Of a stretch of 33,944 bases of DNA, positions 23,197-27,668 are shown piece after piece. The DNA is from a virus. The translations under genes were made by a program, and so were the position numbers. Location of the stretch: the IMG/VR virus record IMGVR_UViG_3300045988_039608, positions 1 through 33,944 of that record; one strand, written 5' to 3'. The stretch's first letter is position 1; the number at the start of each line of letters is the position of its first letter. Below the pieces are notes generated by a model. The model made no database searches. It saw only the letters and a program-made list of their open reading frames with translations, and was not told where the DNA came from.

Positions 23197-23503
23197 TTCA
23201 ATTAAGAACTCTTATAATTCAATAAGAATAGCCAACATTCATCCTACAGGGATGTGGGCAACAAGGGCGCTAGTACTAACAATGCTAGTGCCTATTTTAT
23301 TGGTAGTGGTGGAATACATAATGGTATTTATCAAAGGATATGTTACAGAAGATATGAATAAGTTGATTAATGTAGGGATAAACATTATAGATCATATCTT
23401 CATTCCTTCTGTTCTTACTGCATTAGTAGGATTCCTAGCATTATGGATAGATAAAGATGGCAATGGTATACCAGACCAATTAGAAAAGGAGGATAAACGA
23501 TGA
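23171..23503 (+). CDS. Putative holin (two TM segments, charged C-terminus)
   Basis: RALVLTMLVPILLVVVEYIMVFI and IFIPSVLTALVGFLALWI are hydrophobic, and the tail is EKEDKR. It lies directly upstream of the amidase with overlapping stop/start. Confidence 0.6.
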   Translation: MNTHPKLINSIKNSYNSIRIANIHPTGMWATRALVLTMLVPILLVVVEYIMVFIKGYVTEDMNKLINVGINIIDHIFIPSVLTALVGFLALWIDKDGNGIPDQLEKEDKR

Positions 23504-24018
23504 AAGTATTTATTAATCCGGGACACGATATTAACTTAGACAGTGGGGCGGTTAATCCTGTATACGGTACTCGTGAATGCGATGTAGCACGTGATGCAGG
23601 CAAAATGCTAGCACGCTATCTCGAAACAGCAGGATGTGAAGTACGTACTCTTCAAGATGATGATTTAGGGCTAGTATGTTCTGAATCTGATTCTTGGGGA
23701 GCAGATATATTTGTGTCCCTTCATTGCAACGCTTTTAATACGCAAGCTAGAGGTACAGAAACTTTGTACAAGTCCTTTAATGGGCAACGATTAGCAAACG
23801 ATATTCAAAGTCAAATCATTCGCAGCATTAACACCGTAGATCGTGGTGTTAAGAAACGTGATGACCTTTGGGTGCTAAATGGTACAGATGCAACAGCAGT
23901 TCTTGTAGAAATGGCATTCATCGATAACGAAGATGACCATGCTATGCTTACGAACGATTTAGACACTATCGTTCGTGCAATCGCTAGAGGGATTACCGAC
24001 TACGTAGGAGGACAATAA
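23500..24018 (+). CDS. N-acetylmuramoyl-L-alanine amidase endolysin (Amidase_3-like), catalytic domain only
   Basis: MKVFINPGHD...GAV, LHCNAF...ARGTE and VLVEMAFIDNEDD motifs. At 172 aa there is no room for a wall-binding domain. Confidence 0.8.
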   Translation: MKVFINPGHDINLDSGAVNPVYGTRECDVARDAGKMLARYLETAGCEVRTLQDDDLGLVCSESDSWGADIFVSLHCNAFNTQARGTETLYKSFNGQRLANDIQSQIIRSINTVDRGVKKRDDLWVLNGTDATAVLVEMAFIDNEDDHAMLTNDLDTIVRAIARGITDYVGGQ

Positions 24019-24419
24019 TGTATGAAAAGTACAAAAGTGTATTTGATAGCACTCGCAACCGCTATATTCTTATCGGTGGTATTGTGTTGCTCGTCTGCCT
24101 TTGCATCGGATATATCTTCATACAACCAAACAGAGGGGACTATAACGATACCATTAACACAGTGGAACGAATTGAAAAGCAACAACGAGAAAGCCTTGAA
24201 CTTAATAGAAGCATCCAGCGTTCCATTGAAAGAAGCACAGAACTTAGTCATGAAGCAAAAGAACGAGTTGATCGAAGCACACAATACAATCAACAAATTG
24301 GAAAACGAATTGATGAAAGCCAAAATTCAATCAATGAAGCAAGAAGTAACCTTAAACGAAATGCAGAACTCTTTGACAGAATTGAAAGGGCAAATAGAGA
24401 ACGACAAGAAAACCATTAA
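24018..24419 (+). CDS. Frame A: N-terminal TM anchor plus coiled coil (i-spanin-like topology)
   Basis: TAATG coupling to the amidase stop. RNRYILIGGIVLLVCLCIGYIFIQP is a TM helix with positive charge on the inside, and the rest is Arg/Glu-rich helical sequence. It is overlapped almost entirely by frame B. Confidence 0.4.
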   Translation: MYEKYKSVFDSTRNRYILIGGIVLLVCLCIGYIFIQPNRGDYNDTINTVERIEKQQRESLELNRSIQRSIERSTELSHEAKERVDRSTQYNQQIGKRIDESQNSINEARSNLKRNAELFDRIERANRERQENH

Positions 24420-24495
24420 ACGATTGCGGATGCAACGCAACTTATCTCAAGTATTAAGTGGTGGTGCAATTATAGGGGTAGCGTTCAAACATTAA
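24022..24495 (+). CDS. Frame B (+1 relative to A): signal peptide plus heptad coiled coil plus short C-terminal hydrophobic tail (u-spanin-like topology)
   Basis: MKSTKVYLIALATAIFLSVVLCCSSAFA/SD is signal-peptide-like (AxA). LENELMKAKIQSMKQEVTLNEMQNSLTELKGQIEN shows a heptad pattern. The C-terminal tail is VLSGGAIIGVAF. It ends closer to the operon terminator than frame A does. Confidence 0.5.
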   Translation: MKSTKVYLIALATAIFLSVVLCCSSAFASDISSYNQTEGTITIPLTQWNELKSNNEKALNLIEASSVPLKEAQNLVMKQKNELIEAHNTINKLENELMKAKIQSMKQEVTLNEMQNSLTELKGQIENDKKTIKRLRMQRNLSQVLSGGAIIGVAFKH

Positions 24496-24555: not shown

Positions 24556-24600
24556 GGCCTACTAACTTAGAAAATATCTAGGTTGGTAGGCCATTTTTTG
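24556..24600 (+). terminator. Strong rho-independent terminator ending the late/lysis operon
   Basis: GGCCTACTAAC (24556-24566) pairs with GTTGGTAGGCC (24582-24592), followed by TTTTTT. Confidence 0.8.
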
Positions 24601-24623: not shown

Positions 24624-24652
24624 TTGCATATAACACGAAAACGTGTTATAAT
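24624..24652 (+). promoter_or_regulatory. Near-consensus sigma-A/sigma-70 promoter of the moron operon (TTGCAT-17-TATAAT)
   Basis: -35 at 24624-24629, 17-nt spacer, -10 at 24647-24652. Confidence 0.65.
24630..24649. promoter_or_regulatory. Perfect palindromic operator ATAACACG-AAAA-CGTGTTAT filling the promoter spacer
   Basis: 8-bp arms read directly from the sequence. It overlaps the spacer and the first 3 nt of the -10. Confidence 0.6.
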
Positions 24653-24679: not shown

Positions 24680-24772
24680 TTGAAAAGGAAGAAAATAAAA
24701 AAGTGGCTACCCTTAGTAATAGCTATCATCCAACTAGCAACTGCGGTGATAACGGCGATTAATAAGGAGTAA
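24680..24772 (+). CDS. 30-aa basic/hydrophobic membrane peptide (type I toxin-like)
   Basis: AAGGAGG RBS lies 8 nt before TTG 24680. It encodes MKRKKIKKWLPLVIAIIQLATAVITAINKE. It is below the ORF-track cutoff. Confidence 0.45.
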   Translation: MKRKKIKKWLPLVIAIIQLATAVITAINKE

Positions 24773-24802
24773 CCACAGGGGCTCGAAAGAGCCCCACTCT
24801 TC
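24700..24802 (-). ncRNA. Hypothetical antisense RNA to the 30-aa peptide mRNA (ends approximate)
   Basis: Inferred from the minus-strand promoter. The 5' end would carry the GC hairpin, and a T-run (CACTTTTTTATTTT on the minus strand) lies near 24700. There is no direct evidence of transcription. Confidence 0.3.
24778..24795. other. Stable GC hairpin GGGGCTC-GAAA-GAGCCCC (no flanking T-run on either strand)
   Basis: Perfect 7-bp stem with a GAAA tetraloop, 6 nt after the peptide stop. Confidence 0.7.
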
Positions 24803-24808
24803 CTAACT

Positions 24809-24838
24809 ATTATAGCAATGGGATAGATATGATTTCAA
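24809..24838 (-). promoter_or_regulatory. Convergent minus-strand promoter TTGAAA-18-TATAAT pointing back into the peptide gene
   Basis: On the reverse complement the -35 TTGAAA is + strand 24838-24833 and the -10 TATAAT is 24814-24809. Confidence 0.5.
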
Positions 24839-24915
24839 GATTAACTTTAATCATTAGTATTATTGCCTTTGTATTATCTGTATATAATCTATTAGTAATA
24901 TTAGGAGTATTATAA
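24829..24915 (+). CDS. 28-aa very hydrophobic peptide (doubtful)
   Basis: It encodes MISRLTLIISIIAFVLSVYNLLVILGVL and has TAATG coupling to the next gene. The RBS is weak and the start overlaps the -35 of the antisense promoter. Confidence 0.25.
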   Translation: MISRLTLIISIIAFVLSVYNLLVILGVL

Positions 24916-25106
24916 TGAAACTAGAGGATGTAATGACTACACAAGAGGCTGGAGAAAGATGGAATGTACCAGCTGATTCAATTAAGCAATGCTGCTTAAA
25001 GAGATATGCAAATAAACAATTTACCGATGATGAAGCTAGAAAATCGGGAAAGAATTGGCTTGTAACCCGTCAAGGTATGGAAAGGCTATATGGTAAAGAA
25101 GTATAA
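24915..25106 (+). CDS. Small HTH DNA-binding protein (excisionase/MerR-like HTH_17 type)
   Basis: MTTQEAGERWNVPADSIKQCCL...KNWLVTRQGMERLYGK pattern. AGGAG RBS. Confidence 0.6.
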   Translation: MKLEDVMTTQEAGERWNVPADSIKQCCLKRYANKQFTDDEARKSGKNWLVTRQGMERLYGKEV

Positions 25107-25114
25107 ATAAAAGT

Positions 25115-25144
25115 TTGCCTTTTCATCATTTCTTCATGTATGAT
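25115..25144 (+). promoter_or_regulatory. Candidate internal promoter TTGCCT-18-TATGAT ahead of the Panacea gene
   Basis: Read by eye in the 97-nt gap 25107-25203. The hexamers are imperfect. Confidence 0.25.
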
Positions 25145-25203
25145 TAATGAAAGGATTATAAACTAATCTTAACAAAGGTTGTGATGTTAAGGAGGAAAAT
25201 ATA

Positions 25204-25668
25204 ATGAAAGGAAAAGGACAACAAAGTACTATCTATGATGTTGCAAAATACATAGTTGATAACTTTGGACCAATGTCAGCAATGAAGCTACAGAAGTTAG
25301 CTTTCTATTCTCAAGCAATGGCATTAGTGTGGGATGATGTTCCTATCTTTGAAGATGACTTCGAAGCATGGCCAAAAGGTCCTGTTTGTAGAAATCTATT
25401 TCAAACGCATAAAGGTATGTTCATGATTGAGGGTTCAGAGTTTTTAGAAAGTTATGAACCAGATGTAAACAGAATATGTGATGATCATAAAGCTACTATA
25501 AATGCAGTTTGTAATAGTCTTAAAGATGTATCTGGATATGATTTGAGCCAAATGACACATTCAGAAGCACCTTGGGTAGATGCCAGAGGTGGATTACCAG
25601 CTGGTGCACATTGCAATACTATTATTACCAAAGAATCCATGGAAGAGTATTATCAAGGAAACTGGTAA
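25204..25668 (+). CDS. Panacea / DUF4065 (SocA-like antitoxin) domain protein
   Basis: IYDVAKYIVDNFGPMSAMKLQKLAFYSQAMALVWDDVPIFEDDFEAWPKGPVCRNLF matches the DUF4065 signature (KLqKLlYy...AW..GPV). Strong RBS AAGGAGG. Confidence 0.8.
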   Translation: MKGKGQQSTIYDVAKYIVDNFGPMSAMKLQKLAFYSQAMALVWDDVPIFEDDFEAWPKGPVCRNLFQTHKGMFMIEGSEFLESYEPDVNRICDDHKATINAVCNSLKDVSGYDLSQMTHSEAPWVDARGGLPAGAHCNTIITKESMEEYYQGNW

Positions 25669-25669
25669 T

Positions 25670-26122
25670 ATGGCAAATAAAAAAGGCAGAGCATTAATAA
25701 CGAGTTCTGAAAAACCAATCTCTAATAGGCGTAACTTTGATACAGAGTTGTTTAAATGGTCTTTTAAATCATATTACAGTGAACATGAGTGTTGGTGTGG
25801 ATTAGATGGGAATGATGTTATTTCTAATATTATTCATAAATTAGAGGACTATTCTACACAAACTTGGTCTGTAGTGAAATCTGCATCAGGTGGAAAACGT
25901 GAAGGCAATGGGAGTAACAACCACTTTATTCCAGCCACTACATTACCAAAAGAATATCAAGAGAAATATATCAAATCTGGTTACATGAGAGACTTTGAAA
26001 GAGTATTCTCGTTACGATTAACTAGTAGAAAGAGATTAATTGGATATGTATCAAATGGGACTTTTTACCCATTATGGTATGATAATGATCATTTAGTATT
26101 TCCAGTTAAACATAAAAGATGA
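25670..26122 (+). CDS. Uncharacterised 150-aa protein translationally coupled to the Panacea gene; candidate toxin/effector
   Basis: ATG 25670 lies 1 nt after the TAA at 25666-25668. I recognise no family. The C-terminal FSLRLTSRKRLIGYVSNGTFYPLWYDNDHLVFP has a RelE/ParE-like strand pattern (weak impression only). Confidence 0.6.
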   Translation: MANKKGRALITSSEKPISNRRNFDTELFKWSFKSYYSEHECWCGLDGNDVISNIIHKLEDYSTQTWSVVKSASGGKREGNGSNNHFIPATTLPKEYQEKYIKSGYMRDFERVFSLRLTSRKRLIGYVSNGTFYPLWYDNDHLVFPVKHKR

Positions 26123-26255
26123 TAGAAGTTAAAGTCAATTTGATGGTACAGGGGATTTAGAAAAAGCGGCTAATACTTTCATTCAATAAAAGAAAAATAG
26201 CATTTGCCCCTTATTTGCCCCTTTTTAAAATGTAGAGTTAAAATAATGCGGTAGT

Positions 26256-26292
26256 GGTGCGGAGTATTGAGTATAAACCCTCAATCCGCACC
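26256..26292. other. Long imperfect hairpin between the repeat clusters
   Basis: GGTGCGG (26256-26262) pairs with CCGCACC (26286-26292), and ATTGAG (26266-26271) pairs with CTCAAT (26280-26285). There is a 3-nt bulge. Confidence 0.5.
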
Positions 26293-26314
26293 ATTTCTAC
26301 AAGCTAATTAACAG

Positions 26315-26405
26315 ATTGTAACGAATTGTAACAAACAATAACGGACACAGAAGTTATATAGCTATTTGGAAAGGGAAGGAGTAACAAATCGTAACGCATT
26401 GTAAC
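26315..26405 (+). repeat. Helically phased GTAAC repeats (arm-type recombinase/Xis site candidates)
   Basis: GTAAC occurs at 26318, 26328, 26381, 26391 and 26401. Spacing is exactly 10 bp within each cluster (ATTGTAACGAATTGTAAC and GTAACAAATCGTAACGCATTGTAAC). Confidence 0.55.
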
Positions 26406-26473
26406 GATAATTTGCCCCTTTTCTGCCCCTTTAAAAATAAATTATTTGCCCCTTTTATATGAGGGTTGAAAAA

Positions 26474-26506
26474 AGCCACTGCACATGATGCGGTGGCTCA
26501 TTTTTT
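26474..26506. terminator. Bidirectional intrinsic terminator shared by int (-) and the moron operon (+)
   Basis: 9-bp stem AGCCACTGC / GCGGTGGCT (one G-T wobble), with an A-run upstream and a T-run downstream. Confidence 0.75.
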
Positions 26507-27668
26507 ATTTATTTGCAAGTACTTTACCCATATTAGTAATTGCTGCATTTACTTCCTGTTTCATTTCATCTGTAACATGAGTATATATAGCAAGTGTAGT
26601 ACGTGGCTCATTGTGACCAACACGTTCCATAATTGCTTTTAAAGGGACATTGGACTCTGCAAGAATAGATATATGAGTATGTCTAAATGTATGTGTACTT
26701 ACTGGTTTATGAAAACCAAGTTTTTTTATAGTCCTATTTACATAGTGTAGATCATATGGCAAGCCACCGTCTGTTACAAATATATATCCTAGGTCAACAA
26801 ACTTTGATTTCCATAGGCGTCTTGCTTGATTTGCAGTAATAAAATGATTAATGATTTGTACTGCCCTAGCATCTAGCTTTACTTTACGGATAGAATGAAC
26901 ATTCTTTGGGGGTAAACGCATAGATGCATCTGCAAAGCTACCACGATTAGACAGAGTAGCGTTTATATCAATTTCAGCATTTTCAATGTCATAGTCTTGA
27001 GTGCGGAGGGCAACCATTTCACCAAATCTAAGACCAGTTAAAGATTGAAATTCACATAAGAGGGATACATGATGATTAATTTTATCTAATTGTGTAAGTA
27101 AATCTTTTAGTTCGTCTTTAGTTAGGAATTTAGAACGCTGCTTTTTAACATGATCTACATTAGCCACAGGCTTTTGTAGTTCAATATTATCTAAGAATGA
27201 AATATCACGAATATACTCCATGCGCCTTGCATACTTCAATGATTGCCTAATAAGACTAAGAGCAAGCTTAGTATAGTTATATGAATATTGGCAGGCGAAT
27301 TTATCAAAGGTACTTTGGATAATGTAAGGTGATAACTTAGATAATAATATATCAGTAGGGAACCATTTAATAACCTGCTTATGTAAATTATCCATACTAT
27401 ATTGAGTAGATGATTTTCTAAACGCACGCTTTGACTCTAAATATTCAGATATAACATCATTCAATGTCATATCCTTGGCAATGTCCGTATTAGTGGCCAA
27501 GTCAATTTTCTTTTGTAATTCAGCCTGTGCAAGCTTGTATGCTTGCCTACTGTTAGAAGTATAAGTGACGGATACTCTTTTTGTTTTACCACTGTATGTA
27601 TCTGTATAGCGTTCTTGAAATTTATATTTAGTAATACCAGCTTTAGTGGTTATAGTCTCAACCCACAT
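26505..27668 (-). CDS. int: Tyrosine recombinase / phage integrase
   Basis: 387 aa. C-terminal HTFRHTHISILAESNVPLKAIMERVGHNEPRTTLAIYTHV (HxxR ... catalytic Y). N-terminal SAM-like/arm-binding region. RBS GGAGG. Confidence 0.9.
   Translation of the reverse strand: MWVETITTKAGITKYKFQERYTDTYSGKTKRVSVTYTSNSRQAYKLAQAELQKKIDLATNTDIAKDMTLNDVISEYLESKRAFRKSSTQYSMDNLHKQVIKWFPTDILLSKLSPYIIQSTFDKFACQYSYNYTKLALSLIRQSLKYARRMEYIRDISFLDNIELQKPVANVDHVKKQRSKFLTKDELKDLLTQLDKINHHVSLLCEFQSLTGLRFGEMVALRTQDYDIENAEIDINATLSNRGSFADASMRLPPKNVHSIRKVKLDARAVQIINHFITANQARRLWKSKFVDLGYIFVTDGGLPYDLHYVNRTIKKLGFHKPVSTHTFRHTHISILAESNVPLKAIMERVGHNEPRTTLAIYTHVTDEMKQEVNAAITNMGKVLANK

What the first reader, a model, noticed from the sequence alone, without database searches (positions are those of the whole stretch)
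24915..26122. Prophage moron: HTH + Panacea (DUF4065) protein + coupled 150-aa protein of unrecognised family - candidate new toxin-antitoxin / defence module
The block lies in the classic accessory slot between the late-operon terminator (24556-24600) and attP/int, and it is served by its own promoter(s).

ORF 25204..25668 carries a clear DUF4065/Panacea signature (MKLQKLAFYSQ...FEAWPKGPV). Panacea domains are known as promiscuous antitoxin adaptors that pair with many unrelated toxin families.

The next ORF (25670..26122) starts 1 nt after the Panacea stop codon, so the two are translationally coupled. I cannot place it in any family. It has a Ser/Gly/Asn-rich middle and a C-terminal block, FSLRLTSRKRLIGYVSNGTFYPLWYDNDHLVFP, which only loosely recalls RelE/ParE-type beta strands.

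A small HTH gene precedes the pair and may bind the perfect palindrome in the operon promoter. If the partner is a toxin, it would be a previously undescribed PanT-type effector carried by a phage.
Basis: partly seen in the sequence, partly recalled or inferred. Interest (0 to 1): 0.8.

Follow-up and report, generated by a model that had tools for sequence, protein, structure and literature searches.

The report
Prophage Panacea antitoxin with RNase-like partner
A prophage carries a two-gene toxin-antitoxin-like pair, a Panacea antitoxin plus a predicted RelE-type RNase, that belongs to the catalogued but never validated "T1" partner family of Panacea, so it is a new member of a known kind and not a new system.

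Summary
ORF 24915-25106 is an HTH_59 protein. ORF 25204-25668 is a stand-alone Panacea/DUF4065 protein. ORF 25670-26122 starts 1 nt after the Panacea stop codon and matches no Pfam or NCBIfam model.

The 150-aa protein is not a new family:
- It has 937 cluster representatives at E<=0.001.
- In 98 genomes from more than ten phyla, a Panacea gene lies directly upstream on the same strand wherever upstream DNA is present.
- It corresponds to cluster T1 of Kurata et al. 2022 (217 of 1,268 predicted PanAT pairs, class "mRNase"). Of three T1 toxins tested there, one was toxic but not neutralised and two were not toxic.

What I add:
- An AlphaFold model (pLDDT 84) whose best PDB matches are all RelE-superfamily RNases, though the scores are weak.
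- Near-invariant His85, Arg122 and His141.
- Homology of 99 of 129 members to the C-terminal "PB-BECR1" RNase domain of the Menshen defence protein NsnC.

The HTH gene occurs only in close phage relatives, so the core module has two genes. The palindrome is specific to this window.

Verdict: a new member of a known, still unvalidated, PanA-PanT kind, carried as a prophage moron.

The parts
24556..24600 (+). Intrinsic terminator that ends the late/lysis operon
   Evidence: 16-bp stem, 5-nt loop and T-run. Conserved in relatives.
24624..24652 (+). Candidate promoter of the accessory block: TTGCAT, 17-nt spacer, TGtTATAAT. The spacer holds the perfect palindrome ATAACACG-AAAA-CGTGTTAT (24630-24649).
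   Evidence: Read from the sequence. The -35 and -10 elements are conserved in relatives but the palindrome is not. The consensus scan did not list it.
24680..24772 (+). Small ORF of 30 aa, LKRKKIKKWLPLVIAIIQLATAVITAINKE. It has a basic N-terminus and one hydrophobic helix, and follows the ribosome-binding site AAGGAGGTGA.
   Evidence: Translation. The same position in relatives holds an allelic 30-aa hydrophobic peptide. Function unknown.
24779..24796 (+). GC-rich hairpin GGGGCTC-GAAA-GAGCCCC between the two small ORFs
   Evidence: Sequence. Relatives have a different hairpin at the same place, GGCGGG-TGAAAG-CCCGCC.
24829..24915 (+). Small ORF of 28 aa, MISRLTLIISIIAFVLSVYNLLVILGVL. Its stop codon overlaps the HTH start (TAATG).
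   Evidence: Translation. Relatives carry an allelic hydrophobic peptide.
24915..25106 (+). HTH_59 protein of 63 aa. It is either a phage-lineage-specific regulator or an excisionase-like protein, and is not part of the conserved PanA-PanT core.
   Evidence: PF20038 at 1.2e-29. phrog_2655 'excisionase' at 1.4e-17. Found only in the window and L001-L008 among 119 loci.
25107..25203 (+). HTH-PanA spacer with a promoter-like site (TTGCCT, 18 nt, TATGAT, 25115-25144). It also holds the direct repeat TAATGAAAGGA at 25145 and 25202.
   Evidence: The spacer is almost identical in all relatives, although the flanking HTH gene has diverged.
25204..25668 (+). PanA: stand-alone Panacea (DUF4065) protein of 154 aa, the predicted antitoxin/sensor
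   Evidence: PF13274 at 2.7e-17. phrog_1281 at 5.9e-31. Below the SocA equivalog cut-off, 39 against 190 bits.
25670..26122 (+). PanT of cluster T1, 150 aa. It is a predicted BECR/RelE-fold RNase with near-invariant His85, Arg122 and His141 (also Trp66, Gly125, Trp136, Asp138).
   Evidence: Family size, conservation, model and Foldseek search, NsnC C-terminal homology, identity with Kurata's T1.
26190..26471 (.). Probable attP region with arrays of short repeats (ATTTGCCCCTT-type and TTGTAAC-type)
   Evidence: Direct-repeat families D1 and D2. It lies between the module and the integrase gene.
26505..27668 (-). Tyrosine integrase of 387 aa. It is context, not part of the module.
   Evidence: PF00589 at 2e-21.

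Best explanation
The core is a two-gene PanA-PanT operon (25204-26122) carried as a moron at the integrase-proximal end of a temperate phage.

The 150-aa product belongs to PanT cluster T1. I read it as a RelE-superfamily (BECR) endoribonuclease. His85, Arg122 and His141 would form the active site, most likely cutting mRNA, possibly on the ribosome.

The upstream stand-alone Panacea protein is made in fixed proportion through translational coupling. It binds the RNase directly and keeps it inactive.

In a lysogen the pair is expressed from its own promoter(s), independently of the terminated late operon. Loss or displacement of PanA would free the RNase and stop translation. A protein of a superinfecting phage could cause this, as proposed for Panacea acting as a sensor. 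The result would be abortive-infection defence and/or stabilisation of the prophage.

Shown here: domain identities, gene coupling, near-obligate PanA-T1 linkage, family identity with T1, and homology to the NsnC effector domain.

Inferred: RNase activity, the catalytic role of the three residues, direct neutralisation, and the defence role.
For: Domain identities and family membership
- Panacea domain.
- The family has 937 cluster representatives, almost all 145-165 aa.
- Family identity with Kurata's T1. The D. alcoholivorans DSM 5433 pair is listed as T1, order A|T, gap -1, which matches L092. Phage Emek YP_006560566.1 (T1) hits my family HMM at E=2.3e-16.
- T1 is classed 'mRNase' in Kurata's Table S1, and the C. 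cadaveris T1 toxin was toxic in E. coli.

Linkage to Panacea
- Four independent lineages have Panacea directly upstream.
- In a pattern scan of 185,579 species genomes, all 98 loci found carried true family members. Nearly all had a Panacea ORF immediately upstream on the same strand. The few exceptions were family hits at a locus edge or fragmentary ORFs.
- Pfam confirmed Panacea in 9 of 9 sampled neighbours.

Fold and active site
- The AF2 model has pLDDT 84.
- The top 20 Foldseek PDB hits are all HigB, YoeB, RelK, YafQ, HP0894 or ParE-type toxins (best E=0.023, probability 0.77).
- His85 and Gly125 are invariant. Trp30, Trp66, Ser114, Arg122, Trp136, Asp138 and His141 are at least 90% conserved in the unbiased set.
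- The strand pattern FSLRL..RLxG..WYDxxH aligns without gaps to HigB WSITV..WRITF..NYEDYH. This places Arg122 on HigB Arg73 and His141 on His92 (HigB roles from PMC5027501).
- The non-toxic Emek variant has Lys and Phe at the Arg122 and His141 positions.
Against: - No T1 pair has been validated as a toxin-antitoxin system. Two of three tested T1 proteins were non-toxic in E. coli. The toxic one was not neutralised by its PanA.
- Structural similarity to RelE toxins is weak (E>=0.02, target-normalised TM 0.4-0.54).
- Profile-profile comparison with HigB is not significant (probability 0.3%). No Pfam RelE-type model is hit above threshold.
- The residue equivalences are inferred from a model I could not superpose.
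- Nothing here shows expression, toxicity, complex formation or phage defence.
Confidence: 0.6

Rival explanations
1. The pair is not a classical toxin-antitoxin system. The T1 protein is harmless on its own. It would be an RNA-binding or conditionally activated effector that needs a phage cue, or PanA itself, to act. Alternatively it has a regulatory role for the phage.
For: Two of three T1 proteins were not toxic in E. coli, and the third was not rescued by PanA. NetFlax authors favour a sensory rather than purely neutralising role for Panacea (PMC10440598). In Menshen the homologous domain is an effector controlled by partner proteins.
Against: Both non-toxic proteins are the enterobacterial Emek-type variant, which lacks the conserved Arg and second His. 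The strictly conserved His-Arg-His residues and tight antitoxin-first coupling across phyla are typical of an active enzyme kept in check.
Confidence: 0.2
2. PanA acts like SocA, a type VI antitoxin. It would be a proteolytic adaptor that hands the partner to ClpXP, rather than inhibiting it by binding.
For: The Panacea domain is shared with SocA, with a weak NCBIfam SocA hit at 6.6e-10.
Against: The score is far below the SocA equivalog cut-off, 39 against 190 bits. The partner is unrelated to SocB. Kurata et al. report that tested PanAs form complexes with their toxins, characteristic of direct (type II) neutralisation (PMC8832971 abstract, quoted).
Confidence: 0.05
3. The block is a three-gene system in which the HTH_59 protein is the dedicated transcriptional regulator, binding the palindrome at 24630-24649.
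For: The HTH gene lies directly upstream in the same orientation. It is retained with the pair in eight related prophage loci. There is a perfect 8+8 palindrome in the promoter spacer.
Against: The HTH gene is absent from all other PanA-T1 loci. The palindrome is absent in relatives that keep the HTH gene. The best PHROG match is an excisionase family, which fits its position next to attP and int. The conserved 97-nt spacer with its own promoter-like site suggests the pair can be transcribed separately.
Confidence: 0.12

Closest known systems
PanA-PanT pairs of toxin cluster T1 (Kurata et al. 2022, PNAS, PMC8832971)
   Same: Stand-alone Panacea gene first, with a tightly coupled partner of about 150 aa and no database domain. 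There is HMM-level homology to T1 members, including phage Emek and D. alcoholivorans. T1 pairs also occur on phages and prophages.
   Different: This copy is about 40% or less identical to homologues in reference genomes. It sits in a low-GC (35%) gut-metagenome phage lineage. Unlike the two non-toxic enterobacterial T1 proteins, it keeps the full His-Arg-His set.
Ribosome-dependent RelE-superfamily mRNA interferases (HigB, YoeB, YafQ, RelE)
   Same: Predicted topology: N-terminal strand, helices, then a four-stranded antiparallel sheet. His, Arg and a C-terminal His fall at positions equivalent to HigB His54, Arg73 and His92. It is encoded next to an antitoxin.
   Different: It is about 60 aa longer, with a basic disordered N-terminus and an inserted Gly/Asn-rich loop plus helices. 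No sequence-profile match is significant. The antitoxin is Panacea, not HigA, YefM, DinJ or RelB.
PB-BECR1 effector domain of NsnC in the Menshen (NsnABC) anti-phage system (PMC12065111)
   Same: Significant HMM matches of most family members to the C-terminal roughly 100 positions of the NsnC model. The same H-R-H signature is described for that domain.
   Different: There is no inactive-PIN N-terminal domain and no NsnA (ParB-DUF262) or NsnB (ABC ATPase) neighbours. Control would come from Panacea, not an ATPase.
SocAB (type VI toxin-antitoxin system, Caulobacter)
   Same: The antitoxin carries a Panacea domain.
   Different: The partner is not SocB. The PanA scores far below the SocA equivalog threshold. 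Gene order and the proposed mode of neutralisation differ.

Membership tests
PanAT, toxin cluster T1 (Kurata 2022) | The antitoxin carries a Panacea/DUF4065 domain | tested here: met
   PF13274 at E=2.7e-17, 64.2 bits against a cut-off of 25.7
PanAT, toxin cluster T1 (Kurata 2022) | The partner is homologous to listed T1 members | tested here: met
   Phage Emek YP_006560566.1 hits the family HMM at 2.3e-16 over its full length. The D. alcoholivorans T1 pair corresponds to locus L092, with the same order and gap of -1.
PanAT, toxin cluster T1 (Kurata 2022) | Conserved two-gene neighbourhood across distant taxa | tested here: met
   Panacea lies immediately upstream on the same strand in nearly all of 98 genome loci. 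The exceptions are hits at a locus edge or fragmentary ORFs. The same holds in four metagenomic lineages. Pfam confirmed 9 of 9 sampled neighbours.
PanAT, toxin cluster T1 (Kurata 2022) | Toxicity of PanT and rescue by the cognate PanA | not testable with these tools
   Published tests of T1 members gave one toxic but not neutralised and two not toxic.
RelE/ParE (BECR) superfamily RNase toxins | Microbial-RNase fold: helices packed on a four-stranded antiparallel sheet | tested here: inconclusive
   The model has pLDDT 84 and matching element order. All top Foldseek PDB hits are RelE-type toxins, but with E>=0.023 and TM 0.4-0.54.
RelE/ParE (BECR) superfamily RNase toxins | Match to a curated sequence model (PF05015, PF05016, PF06769 and others) | tested here: not met
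   No Pfam hit for the window protein. Only 3 of 129 relatives give sub-threshold HigB or YoeB hits. hhalign against a HigB alignment gives probability 0.3%.
RelE/ParE (BECR) superfamily RNase toxins | Conserved acid-base residues at the active-site positions | tested here: inconclusive
   His85, Arg122, Asp138 and His141 are 98-100% conserved. Their equivalence to HigB His54, Arg73 and His92 rests on a gapless motif alignment and topology, not a superposition.
Menshen NsnC | C-terminal PB-BECR1 effector domain | tested here: met
   The window protein matches the PADLOC NsnC model at 3.6e-4, residues 54-142 against model positions 204-279 of 284. 99 of 129 relatives match, best 3.7e-9.
Menshen NsnC | N-terminal inactive-PIN domain, plus NsnA and NsnB genes alongside | tested here: not met
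   The protein is 150 aa and matches only the C-terminal part of the model. Its neighbours are HTH_59 and Panacea, with no PADLOC hits.
SocAB type VI toxin-antitoxin system | SocA equivalog score and a SocB partner | tested here: not met
   NF047745 scores 39 bits against a cut-off of 190. The partner is unrelated to SocB.

The most novel reading that the evidence does not exclude
Cluster T1 is one of the two largest predicted Panacea partner clusters (217 pairs, against 218 for the MqsR-like T2). It would be a free-standing version of the PB-BECR1 RNase that serves as the ancestral effector of the Menshen defence system. On this prophage, PanA would act as a phage-protein sensor that releases this His-Arg-His RNase to abort superinfection. 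The earlier failures to validate T1 would then be explained by testing a catalytically degenerate enterobacterial variant (Lys and Phe in place of Arg122 and His141).
Probability: 0.35. Interest if true: 0.55.

Novelty: new member of a known kind. Interest (0 to 1): 0.3.

Why it matters
T1 accounts for about one sixth of all predicted PanAT pairs, yet it has no Pfam model and RefSeq calls it "hypothetical protein". It has never been validated as a toxin.

This work gives experimenters three concrete things:
- a predicted fold;
- a three-residue active-site hypothesis;
- a link to the effector domain of a validated defence system.

It also offers a simple explanation for the published negative toxicity results.

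For this window the practical message is more modest. The prophage carries an ordinary accessory module of a catalogued kind, not a new class of system.

Tried and rejected
- Megablast of the region against GenBank phages found nothing. tblastn of two family members found only one unannotated faecal phage contig.
- The word-index protein search found only close relatives. The exhaustive profile search was needed to see the family.
I replaced it with a hand-made degenerate DNA pattern.
- The first AF2 model, from 12 close sequences, was too poor to use (pLDDT 60).
- A profile search of PDB sequences gave only chance hits.
- Foldseek against viral predicted structures gave nothing usable.
- hhalign against a HigB alignment was not significant. 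That alignment was shallow, at 59% identity or more.
- I fetched the wrong phage record (JQ806764 is phage Oslo) before finding Emek.
- The 281-aa relative P0135 turned out to be a tandem duplication of the T1 domain, not an NsnC-like protein.
- Rfam gave no match near any gathering score. No tRNA genes were found.
- I considered and rejected membership in Menshen and in SocAB (see the membership tests).
- I could not identify the host organism.

Full report
**Observation**

- 24915-25106 is a full-length HTH_59 protein (PF20038, 1.2e-29).
- 25204-25668 is a stand-alone Panacea/DUF4065 protein (PF13274, 2.7e-17).
- The Panacea stop TAA ends at 25668 and the next ATG is at 25670. Homologues start at the same Met.
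- The 150-aa product has no Pfam or NCBIfam hit. It weakly matches phrog_8366 (unknown function) and the C-terminus of the PADLOC NsnC model.

The context is as described.
- The endolysin (Amidase_3) is at 23500-24018.
- An intrinsic terminator lies at 24556-24592.
- A tyrosine integrase is at 26505-27668 on the minus strand, followed by a cI-like repressor.
- The window looks like a circularly permuted temperate phage of 35% GC.

**The 150-aa protein is a large family tied to Panacea**

An exhaustive profile search found 937 cluster representatives at E<=0.001, nearly all 145-165 aa. In a 129-sequence alignment, His85 and Gly125 are invariant. Trp30, Trp66, Ser114, Arg122, Trp136, Asp138 and His141 are at least 90% conserved.

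Four separate lineages all have a Panacea gene directly upstream:
- close relatives of this phage;
- a 35%-identical protein in a different prophage, between integrase and lysis genes;
- a copy inside another phage's lysis region;
- a copy beside a 1,248-aa gene.

I then scanned one genome per species (185,579 genomes) with a degenerate DNA pattern for the motif FSxRx(4)RLxG(10)WxDxxH.
- This returned 98 loci, and all of them contained true family members by HMM.
- They come from Firmicutes, several proteobacterial classes, Chlamydiae, Planctomycetes, Verrucomicrobia, Acidobacteria, Cyanobacteria, Actinobacteria, Chloroflexi, Spirochaetes and Bacteroidales.
- Nearly every one had a Panacea ORF immediately upstream on the same strand. 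The few exceptions were family hits at a locus edge or fragmentary ORFs.
- Pfam confirmed Panacea in 9 of 9 sampled neighbours.

The linkage is close to obligate.

**The family is already catalogued**

Dataset S1 of Kurata et al. 2022 (PMC8832971) lists 1,268 predicted PanA-PanT pairs. Cluster T1 has 217 of them, spread over many phyla and always in the order antitoxin then toxin.

Two T1 entries can be tied to my family.
- The Desulfovibrio (now Solidesulfovibrio) alcoholivorans DSM 5433 pair has order A|T and gap -1. It corresponds to my locus L092, where the two genes overlap by one base.
- Salmonella phage Emek YP_006560566.1 scores E=2.3e-16 over its full length against my family HMM.

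Their SI Table S1 classes these proteins as "mRNase" and reports three tests in E. coli:
- the Clostridium cadaveris protein was toxic, but its PanA failed to neutralise it;
- the E. coli MOD1 protein was not toxic;
- the phage Emek protein was not toxic.

I found no later paper on T1. "Previously undescribed effector" is therefore wrong, while "unvalidated" is right. RefSeq still annotates the Emek-type partner as "hypothetical protein" in 48 complete E. coli genomes.

**What the protein probably is**

With the deep alignment, AlphaFold gave a confident model (pLDDT 84, pTM 0.77). Its elements in order are:
- a disordered basic N-terminus;
- a short strand;
- helices;
- a strand carrying His85;
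- two inserted helices;
- three long strands.

Foldseek against the PDB returned only weak scores (best E=0.023, probability 0.77, target-normalised TM 0.4-0.54). However, the top 20 hits are all RelE-superfamily toxins: HigB, YoeB, RelK, YafQ, HP0894 and ParE-type.

Sequence evidence for that superfamily is not significant.
- There is no Pfam hit.
- hhalign against a HigB alignment gives probability 0.3%. It does pick the gapless alignment of FSLRL..RLIG..WYD with HigB WSITV..WRITF..NYE.
- That register places Arg122 on HigB Arg73 and His141 on His92. His85 sits on the strand that carries HigB His54. These are the residues assigned to catalysis in HigB (PMC5027501).

Independent and significant support comes from PADLOC.
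- 99 of 129 family members match the C-terminal roughly 100 positions of the NsnC model, best 3.7e-9. Even the divergent Emek protein matches, at 4.4e-6.
- That paper does not mention Panacea.
- His85-Arg122-His141 fits the triad.
- The window protein is not an NsnC. It lacks the inactive-PIN domain and the NsnA and NsnB partners.

The Emek variant has Lys and Phe where the family has Arg122 and His141. The identical pair is the one found in E. coli genomes, so the tested E. coli MOD1 protein was probably the same degenerate variant. A loss of catalytic residues would explain why those two tested proteins were harmless. This is an inference.

**Mechanism I consider most likely (confidence 0.6)**

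This is a PanA-PanT module. The T1 protein is a RelE-type RNase. The coupled stand-alone Panacea protein holds it inactive by direct binding, as shown for other stand-alone PanAs. The module is expressed in the lysogen from its own promoter(s) and serves abortive-infection defence and/or prophage retention.

Rivals:
- a non-toxic or conditionally activated partner (0.2);
- SocA-like proteolytic delivery (0.05; the SocA equivalog score is far below cut-off);
- a three-gene system with the HTH protein as regulator (0.12).

**The HTH gene and the promoter**

- A jackhmmer search from the HTH protein over all ORFs of 119 loci found it only in the window and its eight close relatives. It is therefore not part of the conserved module.
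- Its best PHROG match is an excisionase family, which suits its position near attP and int.
- The promoter elements at 24624-24652 are conserved in relatives. The perfect palindrome is not.
- The 97-nt HTH-PanA spacer is nearly identical in all relatives although the HTH gene has diverged. It contains a promoter-like site and a duplicated TAATGAAAGGA. The pair may therefore have its own regulatory region.
- Promoter-like sites in the region are no more frequent than in shuffled sequence.

**Verdict**

This is a new member of a known, catalogued but experimentally unresolved kind.

Two things here appear to be new: the link between T1 and the Menshen PB-BECR1 domain, and the His-Arg-His hypothesis with its explanation for earlier negative assays. 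Both are inferences that need the experiments listed under next steps.

Noticed in passing
window 24018-24495: Two long ORFs overlap almost completely in different frames just after the endolysin. One is 24018-24419 (133 aa, N-terminal membrane helix plus coiled coil). The other is 24022-24495 (157 aa, signal-peptide/lipobox-like N-terminus LSVVLCC, coiled coil, C-terminal hydrophobic tail). Both stay open in the five relatives examined (L001-L003, L005, L006) despite marked N-terminal divergence. This may be a dual-coding, spanin-like pair. If so, it hints at a diderm (Negativicutes-type) host.
   Followed up: partly
window 24680-24772 and 24829-24915: Two small ORFs for hydrophobic peptides (30 and 28 aa) lie between the late terminator and the HTH gene. 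Each has a ribosome-binding site or is coupled to the next gene. Relatives carry different alleles at the same positions. A GC-rich hairpin lies between them, and relatives have a different hairpin sequence at the same place. They could be small membrane toxins, lysis regulators or exclusion peptides.
   Followed up: partly
window 26190-26471: Dense short repeats lie between the module and the integrase gene. There are five ATTTGCCCC(T)-type units and about six TTGTAAC/TCGTAAC units. They are probably integrase arm-type and core sites of attP. No tRNA gene is nearby.
   Followed up: no
L001 198-1049 (also L002-L008); no counterpart seen in the window: Close relatives of this phage encode a 283-aa tyrosine recombinase on the opposite strand, just upstream of a variable collagen-repeat tail-fibre gene. 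In the ORF list of the window (ORFs of 80 aa or more) I saw no counterpart. This may be a tail-fibre inversion (host-range switching) system.
   Followed up: no
protein P0135 (281 aa): One family member is a tandem duplication of the whole T1 domain. The first copy has lost the C-terminal His (WYDENP) and the second copy is intact. It may be a self-inhibiting or pseudo-dimeric variant.
   Followed up: partly
L123 5765-6638 (phage Emek) and 48 E. coli genomes: The Emek-type PanA-T1 pair is at least 95% identical in 48 of 5,426 complete E. coli genomes. There it is annotated 'Panacea domain-containing protein | hypothetical protein'. Its T1 protein has Lys and Phe in place of the family's Arg122 and His141.
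   Followed up: partly
L001 10681-11158: In one relative, a DUF6290-ParE toxin-antitoxin pair lies about 4 kb downstream of the PanA-PanT pair, beyond host-type genes such as an MFS transporter. It is unrelated to the finding.
   Followed up: no
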